A DNA stretch of 27,857 bases, taken from the IMG/VR virus record IMGVR_UViG_2737471861_000021. The stretch is one strand, 5' to 3'. Positions 1,292-24,777 of this stretch are shown here, one piece after another; position 1 is the stretch's first letter; each line of letters starts with the position of its first letter. Origin of the DNA: a virus (Duplodnaviria; Heunggongvirae; Uroviricota; Caudoviricetes). Below the pieces are notes generated by a model. That model was not told the DNA's origin. It was given only the letters and a program-made list of their open reading frames with translations, and ran no database searches. A program made the translations under genes and the position numbers.

Positions 1292-1320
1292 ACTATTACC
1301 ACAACGGTAACTATTACCAC
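1292..1320. repeat. Two 11-bp direct repeats (ACTATTACCAC) spaced 18 bp apart, just upstream of the terS start
   Basis: ACTATTACCAC at 1292-1302 and 1310-1320, seen directly. They produce the odd 'TITTTVTITTVV' translation in the track ORF. Confidence 0.5.
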
Positions 1321-1327
1321 GGTGGTT

Positions 1328-1960
1328 ATGATGCCTGCTGAACCTAAAACCTATAAACGCAAATCAACGCAATTTAAGCCGCTCACAGCAATGCAGGAGG
1401 CTTATTGCCAGTCATACATCAAAACGCCTGAAAACCAGACTCAGGCAGCGATTAACGCAGGATTCTCCCCAAATACAGCGGCAGTTAAAGCCAGTGTCAT
1501 GATGCGCGATGAACGCATTCAAAAACGGATTGCCGAGTTGATGGAGGAGCGCAACAAGCGCCTGCGCGTCAGTGCTGATTATGTCCTGCTGCGCCTGGTG
1601 GAAATCGACCAGATGGACGTGCTGGATATCCTGAACGATGACGGCGGGATGAAGCCGATCGCTGAATGGCCGAAGGTCTGGCGTACCTCTCTCAGTGCTA
1701 TGGATATCGCTACCATCAAGACGACCCAGGCTTCTCTGCAAAAAGAGAATGGCGAGGCGGATCTCTCTGTTGAGGATGTCGAGCATATCCTGAAGAAGGT
1801 GAAATGGCCCGACAAGGTGAAAAACCTCGAGCTCATCGGTAAGCACGTCGACGTTAACGCGTTCAAAGAGCGCCTGGATGTTAATGTGAATGTGACAATT
1901 GCTGATCGCATAGCGGCAGCCAGGAAGCGACTCAAAGAACGTCAGGATGGTAATCAGTGA
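1328..1960 (+). CDS. Terminase small subunit (Terminase_2-like)
   Basis: Internal Met start chosen downstream of the terminator hairpin (track ORF 1250..1960). The 'KPLTAMQEAYCQSYIKTPENQTQAAINAGFSPNTAAVKA' region looks like small-terminase HTH proteins (recollection). Stop overlaps the large-terminase GTG start. Confidence 0.6.
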   Translation: MMPAEPKTYKRKSTQFKPLTAMQEAYCQSYIKTPENQTQAAINAGFSPNTAAVKASVMMRDERIQKRIAELMEERNKRLRVSADYVLLRLVEIDQMDVLDILNDDGGMKPIAEWPKVWRTSLSAMDIATIKTTQASLQKENGEADLSVEDVEHILKKVKWPDKVKNLELIGKHVDVNAFKERLDVNVNVTIADRIAAARKRLKERQDGNQ

Positions 1961-3432
1961 CAGATGCAGCGTTATCTCCTGAAGAGCAGTTAATCGAAGA
2001 TATTGCAGGGTTCACTCACGATCCGCTTGGCTATGCCCTCTATGCGTTCCCTTGGGGGGAAGAGGGGACTGAACTGGCACATGCTACCGGTCCACGTCAG
2101 TGGCAGGCCGATGCGTTCCGAGAGATACGTGATCACCTGCAGAATCCAGAGACGCGCTATCAGCCGCTTATGCTGGCACGCGCTTCTGGTCACGGTATTG
2201 GTAAATCCGCATTCATCTCAATGCTGATCAACTGGGGCATGTCCACTTGCGAGGATTGTAAGGTCGTGGTGACCGCCAACACCGACAACCAGCTACGAAC
2301 GAAGACCTGGCCGGAAATTATCAAGTGGTCGAACCTTGCCATCACGAAAGACTGGTTTACCTGTACCGCTACCGCGATGTACAGCAATGATCCTGGGCAC
2401 GACAAGCGGTGGCGAGCTGACGCAATCCCCTGGTCTGAGCACAACACTGAGGCATTCGCCGGACTACACAACGAGCGCAAACGCATCATCGTGGTATTCG
2501 ATGAAGCGTCGAACATTGCGGATCTGGTGTGGGAAGTTGCTGAGGGGGCGCTAACGGACGAAGACACTGAGATTATCTGGGTGGCGTTCGGAAACCCTAC
2601 ACGTAACACCGGGCGTTTCCGCGAATGTTTCCGCAAATATAAACACCGCTGGAAAACTGCGCAGATTGACAGCCGGACGGTGGAAGGCACCAACAAACAG
2701 CAGTTGCAGAAATGGGTTGATGACTACGGGGAAGACAGCGACTTCGTTAAAATCCGTGTGCGCGGCATATTCCCGGATGCATCTGAATTGCAGTTTATCC
2801 CTACCGGACTTACTGACGAGGCAATGAAACGGGTGGTCACCGCTGCGCAGGTGGCGCATGCTCCGGTGATAATCGGTGTTGACCCGGCATATTCAGGCGT
2901 TGATGACGCGGTGATATACCTGCGGCAGGGGCTACACAGTAAGGTGCTGTGGACTGGCAACAAGACTACCGACGATCTGATTATGGCGAAGCGTATCGCT
3001 GACTTTGAAGACCAGTATCAGGCTGACGCGGTGTTCATCGACTTCGGTTACGGAACAGGTTTGAAGTCAATCGGTGATGGCTGGGGACGTACATGGCAAC
3101 TTGTTCCGTTCGGCGGTGCGTCCACCGATCCCCAGATGCTCAACAAGCGCGGCGAGATGTTCAACTCATGCAAGACATGGCTGAGGCTGGGCGGCATGCT
3201 TGATGACCAGGAAACAGCGGACGACCTGTCGGCGGCAGAGTACAAAGTTCGAGTGGACGGTAAAATCGTTATCGAACCGAAGGAAGATATCAAGGAGCGG
3301 CTTGGGCGTTCTCCTGGTAAAGGCGATGCGCTATTGCTGACGTTTGCCTTCCCTGTGTCGAAGCGTCTGCGAATTCCAGGTCAGCAGAACCAGCAAGGCA
3401 AGGCCATTACAGATTACGATCCCTATGCTTAA
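1957..3432 (+). CDS. Terminase large subunit
   Basis: 491-aa ORF immediately after terS with a GTGA overlap. Size, position and an ATPase-like N-terminus followed by a nuclease-like C-terminus are typical of a large terminase. Confidence 0.8.
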   Translation: MTDAALSPEEQLIEDIAGFTHDPLGYALYAFPWGEEGTELAHATGPRQWQADAFREIRDHLQNPETRYQPLMLARASGHGIGKSAFISMLINWGMSTCEDCKVVVTANTDNQLRTKTWPEIIKWSNLAITKDWFTCTATAMYSNDPGHDKRWRADAIPWSEHNTEAFAGLHNERKRIIVVFDEASNIADLVWEVAEGALTDEDTEIIWVAFGNPTRNTGRFRECFRKYKHRWKTAQIDSRTVEGTNKQQLQKWVDDYGEDSDFVKIRVRGIFPDASELQFIPTGLTDEAMKRVVTAAQVAHAPVIIGVDPAYSGVDDAVIYLRQGLHSKVLWTGNKTTDDLIMAKRIADFEDQYQADAVFIDFGYGTGLKSIGDGWGRTWQLVPFGGASTDPQMLNKRGEMFNSCKTWLRLGGMLDDQETADDLSAAEYKVRVDGKIVIEPKEDIKERLGRSPGKGDALLLTFAFPVSKRLRIPGQQNQQGKAITDYDPYA

Positions 3433-3482: not shown

Positions 3483-3507
3483 AGCCAGCTCATAGGCTGG
3501 CTGTTTG
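3483..3507. terminator. Bidirectional terminator hairpin between convergent genes
   Basis: AGCCAGC-tcatag-GCTGGCT stem-loop flanked by an A-run upstream and GTTTG downstream. Sits between terL (+) and the convergent 123-aa gene (-). Confidence 0.5.
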
Positions 3508-3519
3508 TGACATGTCACG
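3506..3519. repeat. Palindrome TGTGACATGTCACG, copy 2 of 3
   Basis: Identical 14-mer to copy 1; 4 bp beyond the stop of the minus-strand 123-aa gene and abutting the terminator hairpin. Confidence 0.7.
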
Positions 3520-3522
3520 GTG

Positions 3523-3894
3523 TTATTGCTCGCTTAACTTCTGCTTCAGCAAGTAACCTTCAAGCATCCAGATTTTGTTTACAGCATTCTGCCGGGCAAT
3601 CTTCCGACCAATTTCTGCATCAAAGTTTTCCGGGCTTGCACAGGCGCTCTCTCCGGTGACGGTGAAGCCGTTGCGCAGCACCAGGACGCAGAACGTCAGC
3701 AGAGAAAGTGATTCGTGCGGCTGGTAGTTTACCTCTCCGCCAGTATGTTTCGCTTTTATGGATTTGCCAAAGGCACCATCTTCTGCTGTGAAATATGCCT
3801 CCTGAGCAATAATGCCTTCGATATGGTCTGGCGTAACGCGCGGTGCCGTTTTGCCTTTCTCAACGATTTCTTTTTCGATTTGCTGGTCGTTCAT
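3523..3894 (-). CDS. Conserved hypothetical phage protein, reverse-oriented cargo gene (possibly N4 gp49/Sf6 gp66-like)
   Basis: 123-aa ORF on the minus strand with a strong RBS (AAGGTGAG) before its ATG. Opposite orientation to all flanking structural genes. Family guess is recollection only. Confidence 0.55.
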   Translation of the reverse strand: MNDQQIEKEIVEKGKTAPRVTPDHIEGIIAQEAYFTAEDGAFGKSIKAKHTGGEVNYQPHESLSLLTFCVLVLRNGFTVTGESACASPENFDAEIGRKIARQNAVNKIWMLEGYLLKQKLSEQ

Positions 3895-3905
3895 AATCTC
3901 ACCTT

Positions 3906-3929
3906 AAAAAAATGCCCGGCGAACCGGGC
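3906..3929 (-). terminator. Hairpin plus U-tract (minus strand) directly abutting the RBS of the 123-aa gene
   Basis: Minus-strand GCCCGG-TTCG-CCGGGC followed by TTTTTTT; the T-run ends at the RBS. Could be a terminator, attenuator or processing site. Confidence 0.4.
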
Positions 3930-4002
3930 GAACTGGAAGCAATGAGTTATGCCTTCCGTGGCTGTACGGGTTTACAGCATGAAGTCATCGCAATGGCGTC
4001 CT

Positions 4003-4049
4003 GCTGTAAAAAGGGCGGTGATAGTCCTTCAAGGGAAACCATCACCGCC
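4003..4049 (-). terminator. Possible terminator hairpin downstream of the tRNA
   Basis: 9-bp stem GGCGGTGAT/ATCACCGCC with a large loop, followed on the minus strand by CTTTTTAC. About 45 nt 3' of the tRNA. Confidence 0.3.
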
Positions 4050-4092
4050 AAGCACCTGGAACTTCTGGCATCACGGTCCTTAGGCGTGATTC

Positions 4093-4169
4093 TGGCGTGG
4101 CATGCAGGATTCGAACCTGCGACCAACCGCTTAGAAGGCGGTTGCTCTGTCCAACTGAGCTAATGCCAC
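4093..4169 (-). tRNA. tRNA-Arg (anticodon UCU)
   Basis: Minus-strand 77-nt sequence GTGGCATTAGCTCAGTTGGACAGAGCAACCGCCTTCTAAGCGGTTGGTCGCAGGTTCGAATCCTGCATGCCACGCCA folded by hand into a cloverleaf: 7-bp acceptor stem, GCTC/GAGC D-stem, anticodon loop CUUCUAA (UCU), GCAGG-TTCGAAT-CCTGC T-arm, encoded CCA. Closely resembles E. coli argU as I recall it. Confidence 0.85.
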
Positions 4170-4596
4170 AACGCTGAGAGCACTTAGCCTGTTAAGGCAC
4201 CACACTTTGTCGCGGCTCCATAAATGCTCTCATCGTTGTACCCTCGTCTCTTCCGAGGCGTCACACCGAATCGCCGGGATGGTGAATCCCCGTGCGCGGA
4301 ATAAAACCGCTCGACTTGCACATTCCGGCTACCTGGTTCGTTTGCCCGAGCAAGGGAGGGTGCCCCTTAAACGTATCCAGACCGCTATCGGCGCATGTGC
4401 CATACGCCGTACTGCTCAAAATAAAAGCTCACTCCACCTGTTCAATTTAACGACAAGCCAGTCAGGTTAGTAACCGGAATGAACTCTTTGGTTACCTGAA
4501 AGGTAATAATTTGTGCGTTAAATGTCAACTATCTACGATAAATAAATCATATGTGGTTAAATTGGTAATAATTTAATTGCGTACGGAGTCATTGAT

Positions 4597-4803
4597 ATGT
4601 GCATGGGTAGCTCACCGTCAGTGCCTGCAACACCAGAAGTTCAGGCAGCACCACAGGAGCAGGATGCCGCCGTTGTTGATGCCCGCGACGAAGAAACTCG
4701 TCGCCGTCGCGCTGCTGCTGGTCGTAGTTCTACGCTGCTTACCGGTTCTCAGGGCGACACATCAACCGCTAATACCAGCGGTAAAACGCTGCTTGGTCAG
4801 TAA
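4597..4803 (+). CDS. Small protein encoded directly upstream of the portal gene (possible minor virion protein)
   Basis: 68-aa ORF with a GGAG RBS. N-terminus 'MCMGSSPS...' and an Ala/Arg-rich middle. The alternative-frame ORF 4577..4816 looks less protein-like. Confidence 0.4.
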   Translation: MCMGSSPSVPATPEVQAAPQEQDAAVVDARDEETRRRRAAAGRSSTLLTGSQGDTSTANTSGKTLLGQ

Positions 4804-4817
4804 CCGGAGTCATTGAA

Positions 4818-6497
4818 ATGGCTGAAACAACTAAAGAGCGATTGAACAAACAGTTCGCACAACTTGAAAGCGAGCGTCAGTCGTTCGAGCCGCACTGGCG
4901 CGAGTTGAGTGATTACATCAACCCGCGTGGTTCCCGCTTTCTGACTTCTGAGGTCAACCGTAACGATCGACGCAATACACGCATTATTGATTCGACCGGG
5001 ACTATGGCGGCGCGCACTCTCGCCAGCGGCATGATGTCAGGCATCACAAGCCCCGCGCGTCCGTGGTTTCGCCTGGCTACGCCAGATCCTGAAATGATGG
5101 ATTATGGCCCTGTTAAGTTGTGGCTTGAGGCGGTGCAGAACCGCATGAACGATATGTTCAATAAGTCGAATCTCTACCAGTCTCTTCCGCAGTTATACGG
5201 AAGCCTCGGCACATACAGCACTGGTGCAATGGCAGTGCTGGAGGATGACGAGGACATCATTCGTACAATGCCATTCCCGATAGGCAGTTACTACCTGGCT
5301 AACTCACCTCGTGGCAGTGTTGACACCTGTTTTCGCAAGTTCTCTATGACTGTTCGTCAGCTTGTTCAGGAGTTCGGGCTAAATAACGTCAGCGAATCCG
5401 TAAAAAGCATGTGGGAAAGCGGCACCTACGAGAAGTGGATCGAAGTGATGCATTCGGTTTACCCGAACATTGACCGCGATACATCGAAGCTGGATAGCAA
5501 GAACAAGCCATTCAAATCGGTTTATTACGAGGTTGGCGGCGATAACGACAAGTTGTTGCGTGAGTCCGGATTCGATGAGTTTCCAATTATGGCTCCGCGC
5601 TGGGAAGTTAACGGCGAAGATGTTTATGGATCATCATGCCCGGGTATGCTGGCGCTTGGACCTGTTAAGGCATTGCAGCTTCTCCAGAAGCGCAAGTCGC
5701 AGTTGATTGATAAAGCCACCAATCCGCCGATGGTTGCTCCGACTTCCCTCAAGAATCAGCGCGCCTCCCTTCTTCCTGGCGACATCACGTATATCGATCA
5801 GATTACTGGTCAGGATGGTTTCAGGCCTGCTTATCTGGTTAACCCCAGTACAGCAGATCTGGTGGCAGACATTCAGGACACTCGCCAAATCATTAACAGC
5901 GCCTACTTTGTCGATCTGTTCATGATGTTGCAGAACATCAATACCCGCTCGATGCCTGTTGAAGCGGTGATCGAAATGAAAGAAGAAAAACTTCTGATGT
6001 TGGGGCCGGTTCTGGAGCGTCTGAACGACGAATGTCTTAATCCTCTCATTGACCGCGCTTTCTCTATGATGGTGCGTAAAAACATGCTGCCGCCACCGCC
6101 TTACGCGATGGAAGGCATGCCCCTGAAGGTCGAATACATTTCCGTCATGGCTCAGGCGCAGAAGTCTATCGGCCTGTCCAGTCTGGCGTCCACGGTTAAC
6201 TTCATTGGTCAACTTGCGCAAGCGAAACCAGAAGCTCTCGACAAACTCAACGTTGATCAGGCGATCGATGCATTCGCTGATATGTCCGGAGTGTCTCCAA
6301 CCGTCATTGTTCCGCAGGAACAGGTTGAGCAGGCTCGCCAGCAACGGGCACAGCAACAACAGCAGCAACAAATGATGGCGATGGGGATGGCGGCGGCACA
6401 GGGTGCCAAGACGCTAAGTGAAGCTAAAACTTCGGATCCGAGTGTTTTGTCAGCTATGGCGAATGCAGTTAGTGGTCAGGGTGGGCAATCACAATGA
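4818..6497 (+). CDS. Portal / head-to-tail connector protein (T7 gp8-like)
   Basis: 559-aa ORF. The C-terminal 'QQQQQQQMMAMGMAAAQGA' tail and overall pattern resemble the T7-type connector (recollection). Positioned after terminase; stop overlaps the next start (ATGA). Confidence 0.85.
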   Translation: MAETTKERLNKQFAQLESERQSFEPHWRELSDYINPRGSRFLTSEVNRNDRRNTRIIDSTGTMAARTLASGMMSGITSPARPWFRLATPDPEMMDYGPVKLWLEAVQNRMNDMFNKSNLYQSLPQLYGSLGTYSTGAMAVLEDDEDIIRTMPFPIGSYYLANSPRGSVDTCFRKFSMTVRQLVQEFGLNNVSESVKSMWESGTYEKWIEVMHSVYPNIDRDTSKLDSKNKPFKSVYYEVGGDNDKLLRESGFDEFPIMAPRWEVNGEDVYGSSCPGMLALGPVKALQLLQKRKSQLIDKATNPPMVAPTSLKNQRASLLPGDITYIDQITGQDGFRPAYLVNPSTADLVADIQDTRQIINSAYFVDLFMMLQNINTRSMPVEAVIEMKEEKLLMLGPVLERLNDECLNPLIDRAFSMMVRKNMLPPPPYAMEGMPLKVEYISVMAQAQKSIGLSSLASTVNFIGQLAQAKPEALDKLNVDQAIDAFADMSGVSPTVIVPQEQVEQARQQRAQQQQQQQMMAMGMAAAQGAKTLSEAKTSDPSVLSAMANAVSGQGGQSQ

Positions 6498-9374: not shown

Positions 9375-9698
9375 ATGGAACTCGTAAACCTCAAAACCGG
9401 CACTGACAGCTACCAGGATGAGAGCGGAGAAACCAGAACTCGCGATGAATACCCGTGGGGGCTGTGCATCACTCTTAATAACGACACATTGAATAAGCTG
9501 AAGGCGCAACCTCAGGGCGTCGGAACAGAAGTGATGATAACTGCAAAGGCTGTTATTCGAGGCCTGTCTGCCAGAGAAACTGACGATGGTGTTAATCGCA
9601 GCGCCGATCTGCAGATCACTGATATGGCGATCGCTCCTGTTTCCGGGGATGTAGAAAAATCAGCGGCTGAAACTCTGTACGGTAACGGAGGTGAGTGA
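9375..9698 (+). CDS. Small structural-module protein, function unknown
   Basis: ATG at 9375 with an AGGAG RBS (track ORF 9369..9698); its stop overlaps the next gene's start. Confidence 0.45.
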   Translation: MELVNLKTGTDSYQDESGETRTRDEYPWGLCITLNNDTLNKLKAQPQGVGTEVMITAKAVIRGLSARETDDGVNRSADLQITDMAIAPVSGDVEKSAAETLYGNGGE

Positions 9699-21033: not shown

Positions 21034-21054
21034 CTTATCTTCTCCATGCAATAA

Positions 21055-21070
21055 CTGTATATTTATACAG
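21055..21070 (-). promoter_or_regulatory. LexA (SOS) box
   Basis: CTGTATATTTATACAG is a perfect CTGT-N8-ACAG with an AT-rich spacer. The extended 20-mer AACTGTATATTTATACAGTA closely matches the E. coli consensus TACTGTATATATATACAGTA. It sits just upstream of the minus-strand small gene. Confidence 0.7.
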
Positions 21071-21228
21071 TAGCAAATAATTTGTTTGCTATCCAGCACG
21101 TTTTGCAAATTACCCGAAAGGTAATATCTATTCATATTCACAGTCTTTCTATCCATATGTGGTTTTTCAGGTAATAGAATAACCAGATATGCGGCGCAAC
21201 GGGTGCTGCGACTATCTGGAGATTTAAC

Positions 21229-24585: not shown

Positions 24586-24777
24586 TTTTAGTTTCCATAT
24601 TATATTCCAGTATTAGCTGCATGCAGAACCATTTTCCTATGGACGGCAGCATTGTATCACCCAGGGGGTAATTTCGGTAGGGGTATTCTTAGGTAATACA
24701 TATCCATATATGGTTTATTGTGTATGATGTACTCACCAACTAAGGGGGTTCTTTATGCACATTAAACGGTGGTCATA

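What the first reader, a model, noticed from the sequence alone, without database searches (positions are those of the whole stretch)
4170..4596. About 430 bp with no plausible ORF upstream of the portal operon, containing partial duplications of the downstream RBS region
No convincing coding frame on either strand. The motif CGGAGTCATTGA(T/A)ATG precedes both the 68-aa ORF (4597) and the portal gene (4818), and a degenerate third copy (TTAGTAACCGGAATGAACTC, about 4466-4485) sits further upstream. The 3' part is AT-rich and promoter-like. It could hold the tRNA promoter, the late-operon promoter, a small RNA, or duplication scars.
Basis: seen in the sequence. Interest (0 to 1): 0.4.

Follow-up and report, generated by a model that had tools for sequence, protein, structure and literature searches.

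The report
Conserved structured leader RNA in phages
The "empty" 430 bp is mostly the gene for a previously unannotated, highly conserved, pseudoknotted RNA, read on the opposite strand; the same RNA sits at the start of early operons in many E. coli-group phages (P1, Shiga-toxin phages, phiV10) and probably lets RNA polymerase read through terminators.

Summary
In detail: 4170-4596 has no conserved ORF, and the RBS-region repeats are real. They are a side issue.

The window is a phiV10-like Uetakevirus. On the minus strand, 4230-4413 encodes a ~184-nt RNA with five helices, a covarying pseudoknot and a candidate second one. It is extended by a long stem (4168-4239) that abuts tRNA-Arg. A conserved sigma-70-type promoter lies upstream (TTGACA-N17-TACCTT, 4528-4499).

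In a 61-sequence alignment 98.4% of the proposed pairs form, against 27-43% when the partners are slid. Twelve pairs show compensatory changes.

The RNA matches no Rfam 15 family and is unannotated in every record examined. It is nevertheless present in 1071 of 5426 complete E. coli genomes, and was found only in Enterobacterales. It occurs:
- just downstream of pL/oL in lambdoid prophages without an N-like first gene, including Stx2 phages, mEp460 and cdtI;
- upstream of ban in P1/P7;
- in Uetakeviruses, ahead of strong terminators that directly precede a variable accessory gene.

Best reading (about 0.45): a cis-acting processive antiterminator, like HK022 put in function but not homologous to it.

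4492-4596 is a conserved divergent promoter/operator region.

The parts
4230..4413 (-). Core of the conserved structured RNA, 184 nt here and 158-190 nt in relatives. Helices in window coordinates: P1 4404-4409/4389-4394; P2a 4381-4384/4326-4329; P2b 4378-4380/4333-4335, enclosing a variable three-way insert; P3 variable hairpin near 4296-4310; P4 4287-4290/4276-4279, with 7-nt loop UUCACCA; pseudoknot PK2 4281-4284 (CACC) with 4264-4267 (GGUG); P5 4254-4258/4242-4246, with loop GAAGAGA; candidate pseudoknot PK1 4395-4400 (GCACAU) with 4318-4323 (AUGUGC), inside the 19-mer GGUAGCCGGAAUGUGCAAG (4314-4332), which is identical in nearly all copies seen.
   Evidence: Covariance model R1 scores 150.9 bits, E = 7e-51; it is the only hit in the window. 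Covariation. Rfam: nothing at E <= 10. G-U pairs are frequent at five positions, so the fold exists only on this strand.
4168..4239 (-). P6: a long stem (arms 4221-4239 and 4168-4186) with a variable internal insert. It forms the 3' extension of the RNA, and its base overlaps the first two bases of the tRNA.
   Evidence: Inverted repeat I1: 19 nt, 89% complementary. The same stem, with different inserts and compensatory arm changes (e.g. L184 GAUGGC/GUCAUC against GAGAGC/GCUCUC), appears in many relatives. It is absent in the P1/P7 type.
4423..4488 (-). P0: predicted 5' leader hairpin between the transcription start and the core. It is weakly supported. The arm motif GGAGUG(A/C)GCUU is shared with the Klebsiella, Tyrion, PAT1 and E15 relatives.
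   Evidence: Fold -22.9 kcal/mol, z = -1.9. Partial conservation.
4499..4528 (-). Sigma-70-type promoter for the minus-strand unit: -35 TTGACA (4528-4523), 17-nt spacer, -10 TACCTT (4504-4499). The inferred start is near 4491-4497.
   Evidence: Both hexamers and the spacing are conserved in six Uetakeviruses while the spacer varies. Read from the sequence. The generic scan did not list it because the -10 matches only 3 of 6. The start site is inferred.
4492..4506 (.). Perfect palindrome TTACCTGAAAGGTAA overlapping the -10 hexamer and the start site. It looks like an operator.
   Evidence: Conserved in all six relatives. TTACC-N5-GGTAA, allowing one mismatch, occurs 6 times in the window against 0.45 expected, including TTACCCGAAAGGTAA at 21110.
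4548..4570 (+). Plus-strand promoter-like motif CATATGTGGTT-N5-GGTAATA, 27 nt upstream of the 68-aa ORF and portal operon.
   Evidence: Exactly two copies in the window, at 4548 and 21154, each upstream of a plus-strand structural gene; 0.02 expected. Invariant in six relatives. Its function is inferred.
4584..4599 (+). Translation-initiation region of the 68-aa ORF (SD GGAG, spacer, ATG). It is repeated at 4805-4820 before the portal gene.
4465..4478 (+). The 'third copy' GGTTAGTAACCGGA (compare 4795-4808). On the minus strand, 4470-4481 (CAUUCCGGUUAC) is complementary to the invariant core segment GUAGCCGGAAUG (4321-4332).
   Evidence: D2, I8. Not conserved outside the phiV10 lineage.
4093..4169 (-). 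tRNA-Arg(UCU), co-oriented with the RNA and immediately downstream of it. It is an optional passenger.
   Evidence: A tRNA is adjacent in only a subset of element copies.
4014..4049 (-). Terminator-like hairpin T1: 14 pairs followed by CUUUUU.
   Evidence: Conserved in the Klebsiella and Salmonella relatives.
3907..3929 (-). Strong intrinsic terminator T2, GCCCGGUUCGCCGGGC + AUUUUUUU. It ends at the SD (AAGGUGAG) of the accessory gene.
   Evidence: An equivalent hairpin followed by AUUUUUUUA(A/G) stands before the accessory gene in all six Uetakeviruses, with a different stem in the Salmonella phages.
3523..3894 (-). Accessory ('cargo') gene, 123 aa, Phage_gp49_66 family. It is the only protein-coding gene of the minus-strand unit.
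   Evidence: PF13876, E = 8.6e-35. The same slot holds a Tad2-like protein in the Klebsiella phage and unrelated ORFs in Tyrion and PAT1.

Best explanation
SHOWN. Region 4170-4596 has two parts.
(a) 4492-4596 is a conserved divergent promoter/operator region.
(b) 4168-4491 is the 5' leader of a minus-strand transcription unit. Its order is: promoter, P0 hairpin, 184-nt pseudoknotted core, P6 stem, tRNA-Arg, terminator T1, terminator T2, accessory gene.
The core belongs to a previously unannotated RNA family shared by three unrelated groups of enterobacterial phages. In all of them it lies in the sense orientation within early or accessory operons.

INFERRED. The nascent RNA folds and acts in cis on the RNA polymerase that made it, alone or with host factors. 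This makes the polymerase resistant to the terminators downstream, that is, processive antitermination. It would allow expression of the accessory gene here, of the early-left operon in lambdoid phages without an N-like first gene, and of ban in P1/P7.
The tRNA would be made whether or not antitermination occurs.
The operator-like palindrome over the -10 hexamer suggests the unit is repressed in the lysogen.

Confidence. That this is a real conserved structured RNA on the minus strand: about 0.95. That its mechanism is processive antitermination: the figure given below.
For: Structure:
- In the 61-sequence alignment, 98.4% of 1930 pair cells are paired, against 27-43% when the 3' partners are slid.
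- Twelve pairs change on both sides (129 cells); 0 of 500 shuffles reach this.
- P1, P2b, P4, P5 and PK2 covary. PK2 switches CACC/GGUG to AACC/GGUU in at least three lineages. P6 covaries.
- Frequent G-U pairs fix the strand.

Distribution:
- More than 120 IMG/VR contigs.
- 1071 of 5426 E. coli genomes, never annotated.
- 88 phage records, including P1, P7, D6, SJ46, Stx2a/Stx2c phages, mEp460 and cdtI.
- Among species genomes, confirmed hits only in Enterobacterales.

Position:
- In lambdoid prophages the order is repressor gene, terminator, TTGACC-N17 promoter, element.
- In mEp460 the operator TTGC-N7-GCAA found at oR occurs twice just upstream of the element.
- The first pL gene of mEp460 is acidic and not N-like.

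Terminators between the element and its cargo:
- T1 and T2 in the window.
- A hairpin followed by AUUUUUUUA(A/G) abuts the accessory gene's RBS region in all six Uetakeviruses, despite different stems and different cargo.
- There is a 7-GC-pair, U7 terminator 123 nt after the element in L039.
- There is a hairpin plus UCUUUUU terminator before the first pL gene in mEp460.

Leader rather than independent RNA gene:
- The cargo varies while the leader is conserved.
- The element has no terminator of its own in P7, L011 or L175.
- Its distance to the next ORF is about 85 to 600 nt, which argues against control of translation.
Against: - There is no experimental evidence of any kind: no transcript mapping and no read-through assay.
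- In my own scan the overall density of terminator-like hairpins downstream in sense (1.47 per kb) is hardly higher than in antisense (1.28 per kb). The argument therefore rests on particular conserved terminators, not on enrichment.
- The strict scan finds no terminator between the element and the next genes in L011, L175 or P7.
- Only one copy per phage is usual, and none is found in pR operons, unlike putL/putR or nutL/nutR.
- Salmonella phage E15 has deleted most of the element and the tRNA but keeps T2 and the cargo gene. The element is therefore dispensable for growth, and T2 read-through may not depend on it.
- The generic promoter scan does not detect the window's minus-strand promoter.
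- PK1 and P2a are invariant and so untested by covariation.
Confidence: 0.45

Rival explanations
1. A stable non-coding RNA that acts in trans. The structured core would be cut out of the leader and accumulate, for example by RNase P and RNase E where tRNAs flank it. It would bind a host or defence protein as a decoy, sponge or inhibitor, or regulate host functions. The terminators downstream would then simply set a high ratio of RNA to cargo.
For: - The unpaired segments are extremely conserved (the 19-mer GGUAGCCGGAAUGUGCAAG is identical in nearly all copies aligned), and there is at least one covarying pseudoknot, as in protein-binding or catalytic RNAs.
- tRNAs flank it in phiV10-type and P1-type phages, which would supply processing sites.
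- Terminators follow 100-400 nt downstream in most contexts.
- The neighbouring slot carries accessory genes, including a Tad2-like anti-defence gene, in Uetakeviruses. That is a typical anti-defence neighbourhood.
- It moves between unrelated phages as a module.
Against: - It has no promoter or terminator of its own in P1/P7, where it sits mid-operon 85 nt before ban.
- In lambdoid phages it occupies the pL leader, so the entire early-left operon must be transcribed through it.
- Most copies have no adjacent tRNA.
Confidence: 0.25
2. A sensor, in the manner of a riboswitch or a protein- or tRNA-responsive leader. The core would bind a metabolite, ion or host factor and set how often transcription passes the downstream terminators. 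Early or accessory gene expression would thereby be coupled to the physiological state of the host.
For: - A complex junction-and-pseudoknot architecture with an invariant core, as in ligand-binding aptamers.
- It lies in the 5' leader, upstream of terminators.
- In the phiV10 lineage, an upstream segment (4470-4481) is complementary to the invariant core segment (4321-4332) and could form an alternative pairing (I8).
Against: - No expression platform overlaps the core. The terminators lie 100-400 nt away, separated by variable sequence and even by a tRNA.
- The alternative pairing is not conserved outside one lineage.
- The distribution is limited to phages of Enterobacterales, unlike most riboswitch classes.
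- There is no match to any Rfam riboswitch.
Confidence: 0.12
3. An RNA processing or stability element, or a self-cleaving ribozyme. It would define transcript ends or protect the long untranslated leader from RNases or from Rho, without changing RNA polymerase itself.
For: - The leaders are long and untranslated: about 600 nt here and in mEp460. Such leaders are natural targets for Rho and RNase E, and dense structure protects against both.
- It lies next to tRNAs, which need processing.
Against: - Sequence is conserved far beyond what mere structure needs.
- There is no match to any ribozyme family in Rfam 15 at E <= 10.
- The position relative to the 5' end varies from about 45 to about 200 nt and can be mid-operon.
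Confidence: 0.08
4. Nothing functional beyond promoters. On this view the region would be a spacer with duplication scars, or a decayed protein gene.
For: - Short repeats of the RBS region exist.
- Some records annotate hypothetical ORFs across the element: mEp460 gp37 and Tyrion gp54.
Against: - Compensatory base changes in 12 pairs, and 98.4% pairing across 61 sequences.
- Retention at 70-83% identity in three unrelated phage groups.
- No frame is conserved.
- The annotated ORFs lie on different strands and are not conserved.
Confidence: 0.02

Closest known systems
HK022 put RNAs (putL, putR): cis-acting processive antiterminator RNAs of an N-less lambdoid phage
   Same: - Located just downstream of the early-left promoter of lambdoid phages without an N-like first gene, in the sense orientation and upstream of terminators.
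- No dedicated protein gene travels with it.
- A folded nascent RNA is the proposed effector. For put this is established (PMC9378689).
   Different: - Size and fold differ: about 70 nt and two stem-loops for put (PMC9378689), against 158-190 nt with at least five helices and a covarying pseudoknot here.
- No sequence or model similarity: R1 scores at most 3.7 bits on the HK022 immunity region, and blastn-short finds nothing above chance.
- No second copy in the pR operon.
- It also occurs outside lambdoid phages, in P1-like phages, Uetakeviruses and a Lastavirus.
- Its function is untested.
Lambda N / nut (boxA-boxB) antitermination
   Same: Same place in the genome map, between oL/pL and the first early-left gene, and the same presumed need to pass early terminators.
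   Different: - There is no N-like protein. The first pL ORF of mEp460 is acidic and lacks an arginine-rich motif.
- The RNA is far larger than a nut site.
- A boxA-like string (UGCUCUC/UGCUCUU) exists only as the paired 3' arm of P6, not as single-stranded boxA.
EAR (eps-associated RNA) of Bacillales: a structured RNA within an operon that promotes processive antitermination
   Same: A moderately large, conserved RNA that lies inside or at the head of a long operon. The comparison of architecture and function rests on my own knowledge of EAR, not on a test here. The mid-operon position resembles the P1/P7 case.
   Different: No homology: cmscan against Rfam found nothing in 4170-4500 at E <= 10; that EAR is among the Rfam families is from memory. 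EAR belongs to a different phylum and a chromosomal exopolysaccharide operon, not to phages.
Phage 'morons' and accessory or anti-defence cassettes with their own promoter and terminator
   Same: In the window the whole minus-strand unit is inserted against the direction of the late operon, between terminase and portal. It consists of promoter, RNA, tRNA, terminators and a variable accessory gene. The Klebsiella relative carries a Tad2-like gene there.
   Different: Ordinary morons have no conserved structured leader shared with the early operons of other phage families.

Membership tests
HK022 put RNA | About 70 nt, two stem-loops, and sequence similarity to putL/putR | tested here: not met
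   The element is 158-190 nt with P1-P5 plus a covarying pseudoknot. R1 scores at most 3.7 bits on HK022 20000-32000 with filters off. blastn-short of the HK022 pL-nun leader and the cro-cII region against the window and eight loci gives only chance 10-17-mers.
HK022 put RNA | [quoted passage not shown] | tested here: inconclusive
   The pL position is met in many prophages, and the first pL ORF is not N-like. No pR copy was found; there is usually one place per record. It also occurs in non-lambdoid phages.
HK022 put RNA | Acts in cis on RNA polymerase (beta' zinc-binding domain) to suppress pausing and termination | not testable with these tools
   Needs in vitro transcription, rpoC mutants or reporter assays.
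Any Rfam 15 family (riboswitches, ribozymes, c4, 6S, tmRNA, Y-RNA-like and others) | A match to the family covariance model | tested here: not met
   cmscan of 3500-5200 at E <= 10: only the tRNA passes. Hits inside 4170-4500 are plus-strand eukaryotic models at 13-14 bits. NCBI's annotation pipeline marks nothing at the element in the E. coli records listed.
Lambda-type N/nut system | An N protein with an arginine-rich motif encoded right after pL, together with boxA and a boxB hairpin | tested here: not met
   The first pL ORF of mEp460 is a 120-aa acidic protein (phrog_204, unknown function). The boxA-like string is base-paired within P6. boxB was not searched for systematically.
Type III toxin-antitoxin antitoxin RNA (ToxI-like) | A tandem array of short repeats, then a terminator, then a toxin gene | tested here: not met
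   There are no tandem repeats in 3900-4620. The downstream gene differs between contexts.
tRNA gene leader or promoter only | The element should always accompany a tRNA | tested here: not met
   A tRNA is adjacent only in phiV10/SPN1S/Klebsiella-type and P1-type copies. Most of the 53 loci scanned have none nearby.
Protein-coding gene | A reading frame conserved across homologues | tested here: not met
   The best anchored frame is open in 25 of 59. Lengths mod 3 split 16/29/15.
RfaH ops / JUMPStart | The 12-nt ops element GGCGGTAGnnTG in the non-template strand (consensus from memory) | tested here: not met
   Read from the sequence: the window has CCAGGTAGCCGG, which matches 7 of 12 and lacks the T at position 11. 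The short variants need an indel.

The most novel reading that the evidence does not exclude
This is a new, self-sufficient class of RNA that reprograms the transcribing E. coli RNA polymerase into a terminator-resistant state. It would be the functional counterpart of N/nut and put for a large share of enterobacterial temperate phages, including P1-like phages, Stx2a/Stx2c phages and Uetakeviruses. It spreads horizontally as a portable 'expression module' placed in front of early, accessory and anti-defence genes.
Probability: 0.35. Interest if true: 0.85.

Novelty: new variant of a known kind. Interest (0 to 1): 0.66.

Why it matters
If the RNA is what it appears to be, one of the commonest structured RNAs in E. 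coli prophages has gone unannotated. It is present in about one in five complete genomes, in phage P1 and in Shiga-toxin phages.

It would explain how many lambdoid phages that lack N and put express their early-left operons. It would also explain how accessory and anti-defence genes that sit behind strong terminators get expressed.

It would give a second, structurally unrelated example of RNA-only control of polymerase processivity, suitable for structural work. It would be a compact, portable antitermination part for synthetic biology.

In Stx phages, early-operon read-through bears on induction and toxin output.

Even if the mechanism is different, for example a trans-acting decoy, the family deserves an Rfam entry and experimental study.

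Tried and rejected
- Rfam at a permissive threshold: nothing in the region.
- Homology to HK022 put: rejected by covariance model and blast.
- N/nut: no N-like gene.
- Type III TA antitoxin: no tandem repeats.
- Protein-coding: no conserved frame.
- A tRNA-dependent element: rejected, because most copies have no tRNA.
- ops/RfaH: only GGTAGC is shared.
- Resemblances to 4.5S, 6S and RNase P RNA, recalled from memory: superficial and not pursued.
- Extension of P1 by two pairs: the A-U pair is lost without compensation in 9 of 61 sequences, the P1-phage type. Neither the extension nor PK1 can be decided.
- Testing PK1 by covariation: both strands are identical in every copy where they could be read, apart from single substitutions. 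This includes the more divergent phage copies, and part of the 3' strand was left free in the search pattern.
- Terminator enrichment downstream: the overall sense density is about the same as antisense, so I rely on specific conserved terminators.
- Literature: eight searches, including the sequence strings themselves, found no description of the element. The library lacks most subscription journals, so a prior description cannot be excluded.
- K-12 CPS-53, which carries the homologous yfdPQRST operon: it lacks the element. This may be why K-12 sRNA surveys missed it; the rest of the K-12 genome was not checked separately.

Full report
**What the window is.** The region is 99% identical to Escherichia phage phiV10 and its relatives (Uetakevirus, the epsilon15 group). 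The plus strand carries the terminase genes (large subunit 1957-3432), a 68-aa ORF (4597-4803) and the portal gene (4818-6497; Head-tail_con). Between terminase and portal lies a unit on the opposite strand. It consists of a 123-aa gene (3894 to 3523; Phage_gp49_66, PF13876), two terminator-like hairpins, tRNA-Arg(UCU) (4169 to 4093) and the finding's 427 bp.

**Check of the observation.** The statements are correct.
- No ORF in 4170-4596 is conserved.
- CGGAGTCATTGA(T/A)ATG occurs only at 4584 and 4805; 0.06 is expected by chance.
- GGT(T/C)AGTAACCGGA occurs at 4465 and 4795.
- The two 16-mers are the translation-initiation regions of two adjacent genes. They are also alike in phage Tyrion, where they changed in concert. 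They are unlike in the Salmonella and Klebsiella relatives, so they are a minor, lineage-level feature.

**The main content is a conserved RNA on the minus strand.**
- An alignment with a Klebsiella and a Salmonella relative shows blocks of identity separated by inserts of variable length.
- A sensitive search then showed that 4170-4410 is 83% identical to non-coding DNA in unrelated phages. In lambdoid phages (mEp460, cdtI, Stx2c and Stx2a phages, Ayreon, 2H10) it lies between the repressor gene and the first early-left gene. In P7 it lies between tRNA-Ile and ban. P1, D6, SJ46 and RCS47 carry it too.
- In every case the local direction of transcription corresponds to the window's minus strand.
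- The 19-mer GGTAGCCGGAATGTGCAAG alone retrieved more than 120 IMG/VR contigs.
- The element is in 1071 of 5426 complete E. coli genomes (977 chromosomal and 276 plasmid places), and nothing is annotated over it in the records listed.
- A looser pattern run against one genome per species gave real hits only in Enterobacterales: Kosakonia, Citrobacter, Klebsiella, Enterobacter, Kluyvera, Phytobacter, Pseudescherichia, Pseudocitrobacter, Buttiauxella, Superficieibacter, Erwinia dacicola and Escherichia whittamii. One further strong hit (L180) is on a contig labelled as a Bacillota metagenome bin. The roughly 30 other pattern matches were rejected by the covariance model.

**Structure.** I derived a fold by hand from 24 diverse copies. 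I built covariance model R1 from it and realigned 63 copies.
- On that alignment 98.4% of 1930 pair cells are standard pairs, against 27-43% when the 3' partners are slid by 1-3 columns.
- Twelve pairs change on both sides (129 cells). No shuffle out of 500 reaches this.
- Helices P1, P2b, P4 and P5 covary.
- The loop of P4 (UCACCA) pairs with GGUG eight nucleotides downstream. That pseudoknot covaries (CACC/GGUG to AACC/GGUU) in at least three separate lineages.
- A second possible pseudoknot (GCACAU with AUGUGC) and helix P2a are essentially invariant. They are perfectly complementary but untested.
- A long 3' stem, P6 (window 4168-4239), carries inserts of very different length and shows compensatory arm changes.
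- G-U pairs are frequent at five positions, so the fold exists only on the minus strand.
- The alignment was fitted to the model, which favours the structure somewhat. The hand alignment shows the same substitutions.
- In the window the model hits once: 4230-4413 on the minus strand, 150.9 bits.

**Not a known family.**
- Rfam 15 at E <= 10 gives nothing in the element.
- HK022, the one phage with an RNA-only antiterminator, gives at most 3.7 bits with R1 and no blast similarity. Its put RNAs are about 70 nt with two stem-loops (PMC9378689).
- Eight full-text searches, including the sequence itself, found no description.
- E. coli K-12 carries the homologous yfdPQRST operon in CPS-53 but has lost the element.

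**Anatomy of the remaining 105 bp (4492-4596).** This is the best conserved stretch among six Uetakeviruses.
- On the minus strand it reads TTGACA, 17 nt, TACCTT (4528 to 4499). Both hexamers and the spacing are conserved while the spacer varies. The generic scan misses it because the -10 is weak.
- A perfect palindrome, TTACCTGAAAGGTAA (4492-4506), covers the -10 hexamer and the likely start. Related palindromes occur six times in the window against 0.45 expected.
- On the plus strand, CATATGTGGTT-N5-GGTAATA (4548-4570) recurs only at 21154, upstream of the 729-aa gene. A palindrome of the same kind lies about 45 bp to its left there as well.
- Both places therefore look like copies of one divergent regulatory module.

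**Why antitermination is the best guess.**
- The leader is conserved while what follows varies. The cargo is gp49_66 here and in E15, a Tad2-like protein in the Klebsiella phage, and unrelated ORFs in Tyrion and PAT1. In lambdoid phages it is the whole early-left operon, and in P1/P7 it is ban.
- In all six Uetakeviruses a strong terminator directly precedes the cargo gene's ribosome-binding region (hairpin plus AUUUUUUUA(A/G)). The stem differs between E. coli and Salmonella phages, so the hairpin is maintained as a structure. There is no room for a promoter between it and the gene. The cargo can therefore be expressed only by read-through.
- In lambdoid prophages the order is repressor gene, its terminator, a TTGACC-N17 promoter, then the element 40-200 nt after the start.
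- In mEp460 the operator sequence found at oR occurs twice immediately upstream of the element. The first early-left gene is not N-like. A hairpin plus UCUUUUU terminator lies between the element and that gene. In L039 a terminator with 7 GC pairs and U7 follows the element by 123 nt.
- This is the layout of nutL or putL. A cis-acting, processive effect also fits the variable distance to the next gene and the mid-operon position in P1/P7. No protein gene common to the three phage groups was seen next to it.

**Caveats.**
- Nothing has been measured.
- Terminator-like hairpins are not denser in sense than in antisense overall.
- The strict scan finds no terminator in some contexts.
- There is no pR copy.
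- Phage E15 has deleted everything from the middle of P2 to the middle of T1, tRNA included, yet keeps T2 and its cargo.
- A stable trans-acting RNA, a sensor, or a processing or stability element remain possible. I give them 0.25, 0.12 and 0.08.

**Verdict.** The finding is real and is much more than a spacer. The region holds a divergent promoter/operator and the gene for a widespread, unannotated, pseudoknotted leader RNA. That the RNA exists and which strand it lies on are well supported (about 0.95). Its mechanism is inferred (antitermination, about 0.45).

Noticed in passing
window 21040-21228: This is a second copy of the same bipartite regulatory module: palindrome TTACCCGAAAGGTAA at 21110 and CATATGTGGTTTTTCAGGTAATA at 21154. 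It lies in the divergent region between a 126-aa minus-strand ORF and the 729-aa plus-strand gene. A perfect LexA-box-like palindrome, CTGTATATTTATACAG (21056-21071), lies just to its left.
   Followed up: partly
window 1296-1328: Two adjacent TTACC-N5-GGT(A/T)A palindromes (TTACCACAACGGTAA and TTACCACGGTGGTTA) lie at the start of the putative small-terminase ORF. Two more stand at 24657 and 24902, near the holin gene. They may be sites for a single phage regulator.
   Followed up: no
window 3523-3894 (-); L002 2468-2989 (-): The gene slot behind the terminators varies among Uetakeviruses. It holds Phage_gp49_66 in phiV10 and E15, a Tad2-like (Thoeris anti-defence 2) domain protein in Klebsiella phage ST512-KPC3phi13.3, and other ORFs in Tyrion and PAT1. 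It looks like an accessory or anti-defence slot.
   Followed up: partly
L130 (Salmonella phage VB_ST_E15) 2824-2913 (-): Only the first ~50 nt of the RNA (P1 and half of P2) remain. They are fused directly to the 3' half of terminator T1. This is a clean deletion of the rest of the element and the tRNA in the epsilon15-type phage.
   Followed up: partly
L024 3988-4156 and 4795-4961 (-): One IMG/VR prophage carries two copies of the element on the same strand, about 640 nt apart. The downstream copy is diverged, for example GGAAGCUGG for GGUAGCCGG and several G-C to G-U changes that keep the pairing.
   Followed up: no
window 4470-4481 versus 4321-4332: In the phiV10 lineage the 5' leader contains CAUUCCGGUUAC, which is complementary over 12 nt (one G-U) to the invariant core segment GUAGCCGGAAUG. 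This could be an alternative pairing, or chance. It is not conserved in other lineages.
   Followed up: partly
L003 (SPN9TCW) and L007 (Stx2a_WGPS2), insert within P6: The P6 insert in these phages contains T-arm-like hairpins (CUGGUUCAAUUCCAG and GUUCGAUUC). They may be remnants of tRNA genes inside the stem. ARAGORN does not call a tRNA there.
   Followed up: no
window 4597-4803 (+): The 68-aa ORF begins MCMGSSPS, a possible lipoprotein-like cysteine. It belongs to phrog_831 (unknown function) and is conserved just before the portal gene in all the Uetakeviruses examined.
   Followed up: no
L187 (E. coli K-12 CPS-53) 9380-9520: Where related prophages have pL and the element, K-12 has a run of CAGATTTTGACGGGT-like direct repeats upstream of yfdP.
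   Followed up: no
L188 (Klebsiella phage SopranoGao, Lastavirus) 1435-1608: A full copy of the element (117.7 bits) lies in a fourth kind of context: after the lysis genes, near one end of a 61-kb genome.
   Followed up: no
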